Below are positions 44,101-50,486 of a stretch of DNA of 64,000 nt, one piece after another. Where the stretch lies: NCBI RefSeq assembly GCF_023055435.1, contig NW_025963780.1, positions 39,370,001 to 39,434,000 on the forward strand, written 5' to 3'. This DNA comes from Haliotis rufescens (Eukaryota). Within the stretch, counting starts at the first letter, position 1; every line of letters starts with the position of its first letter. Under the pieces are notes generated by a model. It saw nothing but the letters and a program-made list of their open reading frames with translations. It was not told the origin of the DNA and did not search any database. A program made the position numbers and the translations under genes.

Positions 44101-44693
44101 TGTACGTGTGATCCACTATCTTCATCAGCTGATGCACGTCCCAAATACAACGTCAATCCTTAAATAGAGTCACGAGCGGACGGAACTGTCAGCTGGTCAT
44201 TACAAGAGGGAAAAATTACACCAGCGATGGTCCTGATATTATGAACATGATTGCAGAATCTATGCCATTTCTTTTTTTATCGATCTCGGAGAAGATAACG
44301 CACTTTCTTGCAATGATTAAATGATTCAGCTTCAAATGTTGTATTCACATACCATCTGTTTTCCAATGACGTCTCCTTGTGACGTTGAAATTATGATAAT
44401 GTCTATTTGATAAGATATATTAGCTAAAATACTTGAATAATATTTACATTATTATGCTCATTCCGATTAGATGTTTCTGTTACTCGCTTTCGCTCATTAA
44501 TATGATACTAATGCCATTTTACAGGCATCTGGCTTTATCAACCATATCATCGCCACAGAAATGACTACTTTTTCTTATTAATTGTTTGTGATAAATGAAT
44601 CTCATTTCGGAAAGTCGCTTACCCAGTCCATTGGACGCTGAGATCGACAAGTATCCCCAGAAGGGCTACCAAGAGGAGGACGTGTATTTTCAT
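14045..44693 (-). CDS. Receptor tyrosine kinase-like pseudokinase (SP-EMI-EGF-EGF-unassigned region-FN3-TM-TK fold), 23 coding exons, about 1244 aa
   Basis: Hand-spliced exons 44693-44623, 37334-37266, 36955-36858, 36627-36532, 35209-35087, 34822-34523, 32614-32479, 26842-26623, 24784-24100, 23896-23716, 23171-23054, 22940-22761, 22332-22296, 22159-21896, 20183-20139, 19933-19752, 19524-19332, 19205-19086, 18662-18508, 18203-18090, 17879-17765, 16976-16883, 14183-14045. All introns are GT-AG and all phases are compatible, giving 3735 nt ending in TGA. TK-family motifs [27 protein letters not shown] and CW---P--RP-F are present. Confidence 0.9.
14260..15240. repeat. 19-bp minisatellite in the last RTK intron
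   Basis: Unit tgttctatattactgtaac, more degenerate toward 14260. Confidence 0.93.
15717..15885 (-). mobile_element. tRNA-derived SINE (family A), young copy with TSD
   Basis: Near-identical to 3181-3345; 12-bp TSD aatgccatttag at 15705-15716 and 15888-15899. Confidence 0.92.
15919..16227. mobile_element. Palindromic MITE-like element with arms of about 95 bp containing tRNA-like sequence
   Basis: tatttgggataacgctttcttagt...gggattcgaacccacacttgc is the reverse complement of gcaagtgtgggttcgaatcc...actaagaaagtgttatcccaaata. Confidence 0.8.
16883..16976 (-). CDS. RTK-like exon 22 (subdomain X)
   Basis: [27 protein letters not shown]. Confidence 0.9.
17255..17760 (-). repeat. Three decayed tandem copies of the exon 21 3' end and donor region
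   Basis: Copies near 17600-17660 ([11 protein letters not shown]), 17405-17475 ([16 protein letters not shown]) and 17258-17310. Confidence 0.8.
17765..17879 (-). CDS. RTK-like exon 21 (subdomains VIII-IX)
   Basis: [12 protein letters not shown]...[18 protein letters not shown]. Confidence 0.93.
18090..18203 (-). CDS. RTK-like exon 20 (subdomains VIb-VII, degenerate catalytic motifs)
   Basis: [28 protein letters not shown]. Confidence 0.92.
18508..18662 (-). CDS. RTK-like exon 19 (subdomains V-VIa)
   Basis: [15 protein letters not shown]...[16 protein letters not shown]. Confidence 0.92.
18714..18800. repeat. (CA)n/(CGCA)n microsatellite
   Basis: Visible directly in the sequence. Confidence 0.9.
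19086..19205 (-). CDS. RTK-like exon 18 (subdomains III-IV)
   Basis: [30 protein letters not shown]. Confidence 0.88.
19332..19524 (-). CDS. RTK-like exon 17 (kinase subdomains I-II)
   Basis: [10 protein letters not shown]...[23 protein letters not shown]...VVAKVLK. Confidence 0.88.
19752..19933 (-). CDS. RTK-like exon 16 (TM and juxtamembrane)
   Basis: [29 protein letters not shown]. Confidence 0.87.
20139..20183 (-). CDS. RTK-like exon 15 (TM start)
   Basis: [16 protein letters not shown]; ttccag| and |gtaggc. Confidence 0.85.
   Translation of the reverse strand, partial: SRVDFHREPLLELL
20266..21399 (-). mobile_element. Degenerate Tc1-family DNA transposon
   Basis: Fragmented transposase ([36 protein letters not shown]); imperfect terminal inverted repeats (caaaagaaactttac / gtaaagtttttttg). 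Confidence 0.85.
21896..22159 (-). CDS. RTK-like exon 14 (fibronectin type III domain)
   Basis: LSPQGVTV...VTVAW...[21 protein letters not shown]3 L-P-T-Y signature; phase 1-1. Confidence 0.9.
22296..22332 (-). CDS. RTK-like exon 13 (37-nt micro-exon)
   Basis: tcacag|[12 protein letters not shown]|gtaagt; needed to bridge phase 0 to phase 1. Confidence 0.75.
22761..22940 (-). CDS. RTK-like exon 12
   Basis: [18 protein letters not shown]...NCW...[14 protein letters not shown]. Confidence 0.85.
23054..23171 (-). CDS. RTK-like exon 11
   Basis: [21 protein letters not shown]; tttcag| and |gtaagt. Confidence 0.85.
23716..23896 (-). CDS. RTK-like exon 10
   Basis: [31 protein letters not shown]; ttatag| and |gtgagt. 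Confidence 0.87.
24100..24784 (-). CDS. RTK-like exon 9 (large ectodomain exon)
   Basis: Lies within the 263-aa [19 protein letters not shown]...[13 protein letters not shown]...FTISAG. Confidence 0.9.
24822..26580. repeat. Intronic direct duplication (about 24822-25360 and 25863-26580)
   Basis: Both copies start aagttgcgaattgaaatattattt and end agttttgac(a/t)ggtgtc; the second copy carries an extra segment of about 165 bp. Confidence 0.88.
26623..26842 (-). CDS. RTK-like exon 8
   Basis: [13 protein letters not shown]...[12 protein letters not shown]...QDVTK. Confidence 0.85.
27120..32172. repeat. 31-bp satellite, about 160 copies, with higher-order structure
   Basis: Unit catatacttgaatgagccacgcacatgcaca; 93-bp trimers at 31600-32100; block duplication at 1100-bp offset. 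Confidence 0.96.
32479..32614 (-). CDS. RTK-like exon 7
   Basis: [13 protein letters not shown]...RSLENGDR; ttctag| and |gtaagt. Confidence 0.85.
32714..33781 (+). mobile_element. Degenerate mariner-type DNA transposon
   Basis: TIRs gagggctggtcaaa / tttgaccagccctc flanked by TA; decayed transposase motifs DPRSGRP and [11 protein letters not shown]. Confidence 0.85.
34523..34822 (-). CDS. RTK-like exon 6
   Basis: [18 protein letters not shown]...PLTVNG; ttacag| and |gtatat. Confidence 0.85.
35087..35209 (-). CDS. RTK-like exon 5 (EGF-like)
   Basis: [40 protein letters not shown]; six Cys; phase 1-1; donor gtactg is weak. Confidence 0.82.
36532..36627 (-). CDS. RTK-like exon 4 (EGF-like)
   Basis: [32 protein letters not shown]; phase 1-1. 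Confidence 0.88.
36858..36955 (-). CDS. RTK-like exon 3 (EMI-like, C-terminal half)
   Basis: [33 protein letters not shown]-x-CC-x-GW...C signature. Confidence 0.85.
37266..37334 (-). CDS. RTK-like exon 2 (EMI-like, N-terminal half)
   Basis: [23 protein letters not shown]; tttcag| and |gtaagt. Confidence 0.8.
37612..39075. repeat. Intronic direct duplication (about 37612-38150 and 38428-39075)
   Basis: Both copies begin caccgg..actcttcacaaacacaagcaaggcaagtgac and end tacaggtatgtacccttat. Confidence 0.88.
38250..38322 (+). pseudogene. tRNA-Arg-like decayed sequence or SINE head
   Basis: tggacaaggcgtctgacctcggatcagaagg...ttcgaatcc resembles tRNA-Arg(TCG); the acceptor stem is not intact. Confidence 0.5.
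39880..40100 (-). mobile_element. Non-LTR retrotransposon reverse transcriptase fragment
   Basis: [12 protein letters not shown]...[23 protein letters not shown] resembles the G-PQG--LSP-LF RT motif. Confidence 0.8.
41143..41545 (-). mobile_element. Ty3/Gypsy pol C-terminal remnant (post-integrase)
   Basis: [36 protein letters not shown]...[14 protein letters not shown]; in-frame stop. Confidence 0.75.
42385..43905 (-). mobile_element. Full-length Tc1 (DD34E) transposon with frameshifted transposase
   Basis: TA TSDs; TIRs tactcttcaaaaaaatgacttgaca / tgtcaagtttcttttttggaagagta; HTH region, [20 protein letters not shown]-(34 aa)-PIEHLW. Confidence 0.95.
42570..43586 (-). pseudogene. Tc1 transposase pseudogene
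   Basis: ATG at 43586 (MPRLNAAQ); frameshift near 43015 splits ORFs 42957-43655 and 42520-42978. Confidence 0.88.
44623..44693 (-). CDS. RTK-like exon 1a: signal peptide
   Basis: [24 protein letters not shown]; donor GG|gtaagc, phase 2 matches exon 2. Confidence 0.75.
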
Positions 44694-44779
44694 TCGTCAC
44701 TGCCTGCCCAAACACCTCCGATACCCCAGACGCTAACACTGTTCTCTAACTAGGATGTTGAATACAGAACGGCTGTACA

Positions 44780-44815
44780 CCGACTGTAGAGAGAGGCGAT
44801 AGCGGGTAGTTTATA
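44780..44815 (-). promoter_or_regulatory. Putative core promoter A (TATA + Inr) of the RTK-like gene
   Basis: Minus-strand TATAAA at 44815-44810; Inr-like ACAGT with its A at 44785, 30 nt downstream and about 90 nt before the ATG. Confidence 0.55.
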
Positions 44816-49552: not shown

Positions 49553-49639
49553 TCTACACCAGCCGACTCTAACACCTCAGATACCTCAGAAGCTAACACT
49601 GTTCTCTCACCAGGATGTTGAATACAGAACGGCTGTACA

Positions 49640-49675
49640 CCGACTGGAGAGAGAGGCGATAGCGGGTGGTTTATA
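49640..49675 (-). promoter_or_regulatory. Putative core promoter B (TATA + Inr), duplicate
   Basis: TATAAA at 49675-49670 and CCAGT with its A at 49645; nearly identical to promoter A. Confidence 0.55.
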
Positions 49676-50486
49676 CACGACAATCCAGGAGGTATATTAC
49701 TGTGGGGTGTGGAAATATTTCGTGTTCACATATCTTTCAATGCTTCAAGATAAACAAACTCCGGCCACATCTACATTGTAGAAGCCCTATCCAATATTAT
49801 CAGCTGGAAAACATTTAGATCTGCATTACGGTTGGTTGTATCTATGGTTTGTATTTATCACGTGGCATTTGACTGCGGTAAAAACGCGGCATCGACCTCG
49901 TTCAATGTATTGGCTATATCACATACAATGTATTTAATATGACATTTTTTAATATTGGTTAGTATTACACACAACCACCAGTAGCTAAAGTGATGACGTA
50001 AATCCTGCTGGGGTATCATGCAGGAAGCCGAGGTGCTGTGAGTCCCCATGATCCCCAGCGAGGTGGCCTAGCTTTGGTTACTGGTGGCCTATAGCCCGTG
50101 TTTTAAAATTATAGAATTATATTGTTATGCTCAAATATGTTTCATAAATTGTTTTCAAATATAGCATACAATTGATTTTAAACATTACTTTGCATAGATG
50201 ACTCAATTGTTAACATATTAAACTTGGTCTCGTCGCTATATGGCTTGAATAATGCCGATGCGACGTTAAAGTTTAACTCTCACTCAGTATTGTCACATGC
50301 AGTAAAGGTGATGAAAAGTTTGACATACTCAATCAACTGAATTATTGCACATTCCGCTTTATGATCTGTAGGGTGAGCCATACAGGTAAGTACAGACTAG
50401 ATGTATTGTATGGTTATGGATGACTTCTAAAAATATGTCTGATGCATATATATACATGTAAATATAAATGTCGATCTAACTATAGT

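What the first reader, a model, noticed from the sequence alone, without database searches (positions are those of the whole stretch)
44610..49720. Two intact alternative promoters and signal-peptide first exons made by segmental duplication
Seen: exon 1a (44693-44623) and exon 1b (49552-49482) are both 71 nt, keep the ATG, a hydrophobic core and a phase-2 GT donor, and differ mostly by conservative substitutions. Both keep TATAAA 30 nt before an Inr-like CAGT. The roughly 120-bp core promoter is much better conserved between copies than the flanking duplicated DNA. Inference: both promoters are under selection and splice to the same exon 2, giving near-identical mature receptors under different regulation.
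Basis: partly seen in the sequence, partly recalled or inferred. Interest (0 to 1): 0.7.

Follow-up and report, generated by a model that had tools for sequence, protein, structure and literature searches.

The report
Triplicated promoters feeding one abalone receptor
An abalone cell-surface receptor gene carries three copied start regions, each with an intact signal-peptide exon; RNA shows the middle one spliced to the gene body, so the copies likely work as alternative promoters for nearly the same protein, which is a known kind of gene layout.

Summary
The gene is a 1,244-aa Haliotis rufescens receptor tyrosine pseudokinase (RefSeq LOC124142642). RefSeq already lists isoform X1 with exon 1a and X2 with exon 1b. 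A third intact cassette, 1c, lies 33 kb upstream of 1b, outside the window; no protein isoform for it was found, and no gene body lies in between. All three have TATAAA 30 nt before a CAGT, a 71-nt exon and a phase-2 GT donor. RNA contigs join 1b exactly to this gene's exon 2 in one run, and to a near-identical exon 2 in runs of two other organisms. 1c is transcribed in 2 of 4 runs. In one contig 1c splices into the CAG of 1b's 'Inr', so 1b can also be an internal exon. The 1a/1b promoter block is better conserved than the flanks (96/100 versus 84%, scan p≈0.014), but transcribed 1c keeps only 65–80% there, so shared recent ancestry or gene conversion explains it as well as selection does. Different regulation is untested. 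This is not an assembly artefact. It is a new member of a known kind (variable first exons); interest is modest.

The parts
44623..44693 (-). Coding part of exon 1a: ATG, 23-residue signal-peptide-like segment, phase-2 GT donor
   Evidence: N-terminus of RefSeq isoform X1 (P0001)
44694..44856 (-). 5'UTR and predicted core promoter of 1a: TATAAA 44815-44810, Inr-like CAGT with A at 44785, preceded by a pyrimidine tract (11 of 14 nt)
   Evidence: promoter function inferred from motifs
49482..49552 (-). Coding part of exon 1b: ATG, signal-peptide-like segment, phase-2 GT donor; spliced to exon 2
   Evidence: N-terminus of RefSeq isoform X2 (P0018)
49553..49716 (-). 5'UTR and predicted core promoter of 1b: TATAAA 49675-49670, Inr-like CAGT with A at 49645; the AG at 49645-49644 is used as a splice acceptor in one contig, from the third cassette 1c. 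1c itself lies outside the window (G000:C2:39452818-39453011, locus L003; 82818-83011 if the window numbering is extended): TATAAA, Inr and an intact 71-nt coding part with GT donor
   Evidence: (run X4, record 10); for 1c, transcribed in runs X4 and X17
44612..48844 (-). Duplication unit A: exon 1a, promoter, upstream flank, 32-bp satellite 45873-48278 (75 copies), distal flank
49358..61307 (-). Duplication unit B: short intron stub, exon 1b, promoter, flank, 32-bp satellite 51156-60517 (292 copies), distal flank
37266..37334 (-). Exon 2 (69 nt, phase 2 to 2), the first shared exon
   Evidence: spliced to exon 3 in 4 of 4 runs
14045..37334 (-). Shared gene body, exons 2-23: Cys-rich/EGF-like N-terminus, FN3 domain, transmembrane segment, tyrosine-kinase-like domain with HRK and GCG in place of HRD and DFG

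Best explanation
One abalone receptor pseudokinase gene has three tandem-duplicated promoter plus signal-peptide cassettes (1c, 1b, 1a) ahead of a single gene body, and each likely starts its own transcript that splices to the shared exon 2, giving a mature receptor predicted to be identical or one residue different. Shown: the three intact cassettes, the lack of any gene body between them, the 1b-to-exon-2 junction in RNA, transcription of 1c, and one 1c-to-1b junction. From annotation only: 1a to exon 2 (RefSeq X1). Inferred: the 1c type is ancestral and a copy of it duplicated again into 1a and 1b; each TATA/Inr fires on its own; the cap-proximal donor normally pairs with exon 2. Because the Inr sits in a pyrimidine tract ending in CAG, an upstream cassette can also splice into the next cassette's start. 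That makes 1b a hybrid first/internal exon and turns the 1c ATG into a short upstream ORF that stops in the 1b 5'UTR. The likely effect of the triplication is on amount, place or timing of expression, not on protein sequence.
For: Three and only three matches in the genome to the 1a or 1c cassette. 0 of 22 body exons have a credible match in 37.4-110 kb (two 21-23 nt hits at E 0.03-0.04), against 22 of 22 in the control paralog region. TATAAA is at -30 in all three cassettes; the neighbouring single-first-exon paralogs keep TATA at -32 and the same CAGTCGG. RNA contigs end the 1b match at 49482 and run on into exon 2: run X1 30/30 identical to 37334-37305; X17 and X18 (two other organism labels) 28/30 to this gene's exon 2 and 29/30 to the neighbouring paralog's. 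Introns are skipped at canonical sites and silent intron bins are empty, so these are spliced RNA. RefSeq X1 and X2 carry 1a and 1b. The H. cracherodii ortholog has a 1a-type leader (22/23), while H. rubra and H. asinina leaders are closest to 1c (2-4 differences, versus 4-6 to 1a/1b). dN/dS between copies is 0.44, 0.27 and 0.16, on small counts. Run X17 holds two versions each of the 1b UTR and of 1c, so 1b and 1c are not alleles of each other.
Against: No start site was measured, because contigs cannot show one. The only X4 contig reaches 1b from 1c, and both X17 1b-UTR contigs stop matching at 49644, which fits a start at the Inr or use of the acceptor equally well. A direct 1c-to-exon-2 junction was not seen, and no 1c protein isoform is in the RefSeq cluster. 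The 1a junction rests on a gene model whose read support I could not inspect. The signal-peptidase site was not predicted with a dedicated tool. In X4 and X17 the 1b end also joins a divergent exon 2 that is absent from this genome at up to 2 mismatches, so the locus differs between animals.
Confidence: 0.75

Rival explanations
1. The cassettes are used but redundant: the high 1a/1b promoter identity comes from their more recent common origin or a gene-conversion tract, not from selection for separate regulation.
For: 1c is transcribed yet matches 1a/1b at only 45/69 in -70..-1 and 44-45/56 in the first half of the UTR. Informative sites are mosaic: 56 of 71 group 1a with 1b in 44960-44709, against 23 of 93 elsewhere (0 of 300 shuffles); in the intron 1a is closer to 1c (89/135) than to 1b (71/129), in a poor alignment. 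Exchange among paralogs looks common here: the H. cracherodii G3-type protein matches this gene at 52/56 in residues 25-80 while H. rufescens G3 matches at 31/56.
Against: The block is centred on TATA-Inr-UTR, where constraint is expected. All three ORFs and donors are intact. 1b is unchanged over 74 nt in another organism (X17 record 3) and the 1a type is kept in H. cracherodii. This rival concerns why the copies are alike, not whether they are used.
Confidence: 0.4
2. 1c is the main promoter, and 1b (perhaps also 1a) is reached mostly as an internal exon through the CAG acceptor, so RefSeq X1/X2 proteins come from transcripts that start further upstream.
For: X4 record 10 runs 1c UTR, 1c exon, 1b from 49643, exon 2 without a branch. 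11-12 of 14 nt before the CAG are pyrimidines in 1a and 1b, against 5-7 in the paralogs. X17 1b contigs stop matching at 49644.
Against: One contig in one run (depth 15.7). The tract is also present in 1c, which has no known upstream donor, so it likely predates the duplication. TATAAA at -30 is kept. Such transcripts carry an upstream ATG with an in-frame stop 12 codons into the 1b UTR, which would be expected to lower output. The X17 contigs carry only 4 unmatched letters, not the 30 expected from a joined upstream exon in a k=31 graph (inference).
Confidence: 0.12
3. The extra first exons are orphans of whole-gene tandem copies whose bodies were deleted by unequal crossing-over, rather than products of a promoter-only duplication.
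For: The gene is the last of a tandem cluster of paralogs. H. rubra has two models with 1c-type leaders (P0008, P0011), which may be haplotigs.
Against: No body remnant lies between the cassettes. Homology between units covers only upstream flank, exon 1 and 0.1-0.55 kb of intron. This rival changes the origin, not present use.
Confidence: 0.15
4. Assembly artefact: two haplotypes placed in tandem.
For: Tandem placement around a satellite; abalone are highly heterozygous (recalled).
Against: Aligned flanks are about 83% identical with many indels and different insertions. Two 1b-UTR versions within one run each differ from the window at only 3-4 of 119 nt. There are three copies. 1a-type and 1b-type sequences occur in other species or organism labels.
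Confidence: 0.02

Closest known systems
Variable-first-exon clusters: vertebrate UGT1, GCNT2, protocadherin alpha/gamma (PMC1885805; 12 passages read)
   Same: Tandem homologous first exons of the same length and frame, each behind its own promoter-like sequence, expanded by tandem duplication and spliced to shared constant exons. GCNT2 likewise has three variable exons.
   Different: There the variable exon encodes the functional N-terminal domain (in UGT1, signal peptide plus substrate-binding domain). Here it encodes only a 23-residue leader, so the mature protein should barely change. Per-promoter activity is not shown here.
Hybrid first-internal exons (PMC11797052; abstract and 9 passages read)
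   Same: One exon used as first or internal, with the start site centred on the 3' splice site; first exons becoming hybrid by gaining an exon upstream.
   Different: That study is on human and mouse; the word 'duplication' does not occur in its main text. Here the upstream exon is a paralog of the same first exon, and the internal use rests on one contig.
RefSeq LOC124142642 isoforms X1 and X2 (H. rufescens), with relatives in other Haliotis, Nucella, Lottia and Saccostrea
   Same: This very gene; X1 begins with 1a and X2 with 1b.
   Different: No 1c protein isoform among the 3 cluster members. The protein name is 'uncharacterized'.
Receptor tyrosine pseudokinases such as PTK7, RYK, ROR, HER3 (search listing only)
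   Same: Single-pass receptor with a PK_Tyr-type domain lacking the HRD and DFG aspartates.
   Different: Different ectodomain (Cys-rich/EGF-like, FN3); full-architecture relatives found only in molluscs (one starfish protein matched a short EGF stretch); no ligand known.

Membership tests
Variable-first-exon gene (UGT1/GCNT2/Pcdh type) | Tandem array of homologous first exons ahead of one set of constant exons | tested here: met
   Three cassettes; 0 of 22 body exons between them; control 22 of 22
Variable-first-exon gene (UGT1/GCNT2/Pcdh type) | Same length, frame and donor phase | tested here: met
   All 71 nt, phase 2, GG|GTAAG
Variable-first-exon gene (UGT1/GCNT2/Pcdh type) | Each variable exon is spliced separately to the constant region | tested here: inconclusive
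   1b shown in RNA; 1a from RefSeq X1 only; 1c direct junction not seen
Variable-first-exon gene (UGT1/GCNT2/Pcdh type) | Each exon has its own active promoter | tested here: inconclusive
   TATA/Inr motifs in all three; 1c is the most upstream copy found and is transcribed; no start-site data
Variable-first-exon gene (UGT1/GCNT2/Pcdh type) | Variable exon encodes the specificity domain and diversifies the mature protein | tested here: not met
   X1 and X2 differ only at residues 5-23 of 1,244; so it works like these clusters in layout but is not filed as a member of those gene families
Variable-first-exon gene (UGT1/GCNT2/Pcdh type) | Tissue- or cell-specific promoter choice | not testable with these tools
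   Runs are coded, contig depth cannot rank exons
Hybrid first-internal exon (1b) | Upstream splice junction into the exon | tested here: met
   One contig, X4 record 10: 1c donor to 49643; single run
Hybrid first-internal exon (1b) | Transcription also starts at the exon | not testable with these tools
   Needs CAGE or capped long reads; motifs only
Receptor tyrosine pseudokinase | Kinase-family domain lacking the catalytic HRD and DFG aspartates | tested here: met
   PF07714 on kinase exons; no Asp at either motif in 15 of 15 aligned proteins; activity not assayed
FGF receptor (name given to H. diversicolor P0005) | Ig-domain ectodomain and intact catalytic motifs (features recalled) | tested here: not met
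   Precomputed Pfam for P0001 lists kinase and FN3 only; catalytic aspartates absent; only 10 of 23 exons were scanned directly

The most novel reading that the evidence does not exclude
Duplicating a promoter whose Inr is a pyrimidine tract ending in CAG automatically builds a chain of hybrid exons. Each upstream cassette can either splice to exon 2 (productive) or be captured by the next cassette's start, turning its own signal-peptide exon into a repressive upstream ORF, so the array tunes receptor dose through splicing between paralogous promoters.
Probability: 0.12. Interest if true: 0.62.

Novelty: new member of a known kind. Interest (0 to 1): 0.33.

Why it matters
It is a compact example of alternative promoters arising by tandem duplication of a promoter plus leader exon in an invertebrate, with the apparent ancestral leader type present in other abalones for comparison. 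Since only the signal peptide varies, it isolates regulatory from protein divergence. The 1c-to-1b junction suggests a simple route to hybrid exons. The two-isoform core is already in RefSeq and the architecture is well known, so a specialist would find it a neat case rather than a surprise.

Tried and rejected
No RNA holder was listed as such (20 of 24 rows hold part of exon 9; 'RNA' is guessed). No contig with 1a-specific letters appeared: on 36500-45100 the only contigs covering 44665 (X1, X17) carry the 1b/1c letter, and X2 and X4 have no cover there; none appeared on the 1b stretch in X1, X4, X17 or X18. Contigs drop rare forms, so this is not evidence against 1a. The 37334-44623 joint was not among the 15 of 27 joints shown, which was crowded by transposon contigs. 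1a and 1b use were not compared in one alignment spanning exon 2, 1a and 1b. The plus-strand signal-like ORF in intron 1 (38658-39074) is a dispersed repeat (41 matches, 40 of 140 candidates scored) and was rejected as a fourth leader. The divergent exon 2 seen in X4/X17 is not in this genome at up to 2 mismatches; its nearest match in the 264 kb examined is G3 exon 2 at 25/30. I read it as a divergent allele or paralog of other animals, unresolved. Literature: 0 papers hold 'LOC124142642'; the listings (6 of 6; 5 of 5; 15 of 1,458; 20 of 131) show nothing on this locus by title or abstract start. Supplements were not searched and could list the gene. Earlier scan notes: none near. No fold or complex prediction was run, as neither bears on promoter use.
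Full report
The gene. The window is G000:C2:39370001-39434000. On the minus strand I traced 23 coding exons with canonical AG/GT ends and consistent phases from 44693 to 14045 (the last exon read). Exon 9 matches at 100% a 1,244-aa protein named LOC124142642 isoform X1 of Haliotis rufescens. Pfam on 10 single exons gave FN3, a sub-threshold EGF_2 match and PK_Tyr. The kinase has HRK for HRD and GCG for DFG, and none of 15 aligned proteins has either aspartate, so it is a predicted receptor pseudokinase. 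It is the last gene of a tandem cluster: G2 (about 110-135 kb in extended window numbering), G3 (143-176 kb) and a further fragment near 196 kb, with four H. rufescens loci named.

The observation. Exons 1a (44693-44623) and 1b (49552-49482) are as described: 71 nt, ATG, hydrophobic core, phase-2 GG|GTAAG. They differ at 10 nt, giving six conservative residue changes. TATAAA lies exactly 30 nt before the A of CAGT in both. The duplicated units run 44612-48844 and 49471-61307 as collinear patches of 70-82% BLAST identity around a 32-bp satellite of 75 versus 292 copies. Identity over 44856-44731 is 118/126. The best 100-column window is 96/100 against a mean of 84% over 1,168 aligned columns, reached by 136 of 10,000 shuffles. 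The flank figure uses only alignable patches, which makes the test conservative, but the shuffle ignores conversion and rate variation.

A third cassette. Searching the genome with the 1a or the 1c region gives the same three places. The third, 1c (coding 82888-82818 in extended numbering, locus L003), is intact, with TATAAA at -30, a 71-nt exon and a GT donor. None of 22 body exons has a credible match between 37.4 and 110 kb (two 21-23 nt hits at E 0.03-0.04), while 22 of 22 match in the G2 control region. So three leaders precede one body. H. rubra and H. asinina leaders differ from 1c at 2-4 of 23 residues and from 1a/1b at 4-6; H. cracherodii has a 1a-type leader (1 difference). I infer that the 1c type is ancestral and that 1a and 1b came from a second duplication.

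Use in RNA. The protein cluster has three members: X1 begins with 1a, X2 with 1b, and the third is the H. cracherodii ortholog. X1 and X2 differ only in residues 5-23. I laid contigs of five coded runs out of 24 listed. In one search, exons 2-3 were joined at canonical introns in 4 of 4 runs and exons 3-4 in 3 of 4, and silent intron bins were empty, so the material is spliced RNA. In one search, 4 of 4 runs (four studies, three organism labels) cover 1b and stop at its donor. The loose end in X1 is 30/30 identical to exon 2 at 37334-37305. In X17 and X18 it is 28/30 to this gene's exon 2 and 29/30 to G2's; an X17 contig of the same depth (54.8) carries exons 2-4 on this gene's stretch. X4 and X17 also join the 1b end to a divergent exon 2 that is not in this genome. 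1c is present in 2 of 4 runs: loose ends match 82821-82850 (X17) and 82900-82929 (X4) at 30/30. X17 has two versions each of the 1b UTR and of 1c, as expected for alleles of two separate loci.

The Inr as acceptor. X4 record 10 (337 nt, depth 15.7) reads, in transcript direction, 36 nt of 1c UTR, an 82-nt piece in register with 1c's exon end, then 1b from 49643 (two letters between the pieces, one differing from the window) to its donor, then the divergent exon 2. The tool prints 0 other letters for the 82-nt piece and does not add its depth; I take it as 1c because the adjoining UTR matches 1c exactly in register and a contig cannot repeat a 31-mer (inference). The junction uses the AG at 49645-49644, which follows 12 pyrimidines in 14 nt. 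The 1c ATG is then in frame with a TGA 12 codons into the 1b UTR, forming an upstream ORF. This matches hybrid first-internal exons, whose start sites centre on the 3' splice site (PMC11797052, abstract). It rests on one contig and may be splicing noise.

Selection or history. All three ORFs, donors and TATA-Inr spacings are intact, dN/dS is 0.16-0.44 on few sites, and 1b is unchanged over 74 nt in another organism, which favours constraint on the cassettes. But 1c is transcribed with only 45/69 and 44-45/56 identity in the block, and informative sites are mosaic: 56 of 71 group 1a with 1b over 44960-44709 versus 23 of 93 elsewhere (0 of 300 shuffles), with 1a nearer 1c in the intron, where the alignment is poor. 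Paralog exchange looks frequent in this cluster. The excess 1a/1b identity therefore cannot be assigned to selection. 'Different regulation' was not testable.

Comparison. The layout works like UGT1, GCNT2 and protocadherin variable first exons, which arose by tandem duplication, each behind a distinct promoter (PMC1885805, 12 passages). It fails one feature: the variable exon here encodes only the leader, so the mature protein should not diversify. It is thus an alternative-promoter gene of that general layout, not a member of those gene families. No paper in the library names the locus, and listings showed none on it; supplements were not searched.

Verdict. Real, not an artefact, and partly already annotated. 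Best reading: three duplicated alternative promoter/leader cassettes for one receptor (0.75), with occasional splicing of one cassette into the next. New member of a known kind; interest 0.33.

Noticed in passing
window 19524-14045 and proteins P0001-P0024: The mollusc family found (Haliotis, Nucella, Lottia, Saccostrea) lacks the HRD and DFG aspartates in 15 of 15 aligned proteins, yet members are named FGFR, ephrin receptor or receptor tyrosine kinase. It looks like a conserved, misnamed receptor pseudokinase family.
   Followed up: partly
extended window numbering 110,000-196,000 (L008-L017): Tandem cluster of paralogs G2, G3 and a further fragment upstream; a kinase-less 873-aa paralog is annotated on a contig of the same length.
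   Followed up: partly
P0001 versus P0019, P0003, P0020: Between H. rufescens and H. cracherodii orthologs the ectodomain is about 83-92% identical but the kinase region is 291/294; residues 25-80 appear swapped between paralogs (52/56 versus 31/56). This pattern suggests fast evolution and gene conversion of the ligand-facing end, as in immune receptors (inference).
   Followed up: partly
runs X4 and X17, loose end at window 49481: Exon 1b is joined to a divergent exon 2 absent from this genome: a strongly diverged allele or an extra paralog in other animals.
   Followed up: partly
window 37612-38143 and 38427-39075 (+): Two copies of a dispersed repeat in intron 1 with a chance signal-peptide-like frame; several genomic matches come in pairs about 7.9 kb apart, as expected for LTRs.
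   Followed up: partly
window 42520-43700 and 20447-21077 (-): Two degenerate Tc1/mariner-like transposase remnants in introns (family assigned from recalled motifs in the translations); the first is covered by many RNA contigs.
   Followed up: no
window 24822-25411 versus 25863-26628: Small tandem duplication inside intron 8, 82-91% identical.
   Followed up: no
extended window numbering 96,501-105,465 (L007-L008): A related 32-bp satellite in the opposite orientation lies between 1c and the end of G2.
   Followed up: no
window 49566: All four runs laid differ from the window at this 5'UTR base: a private variant or an assembly error.
   Followed up: no
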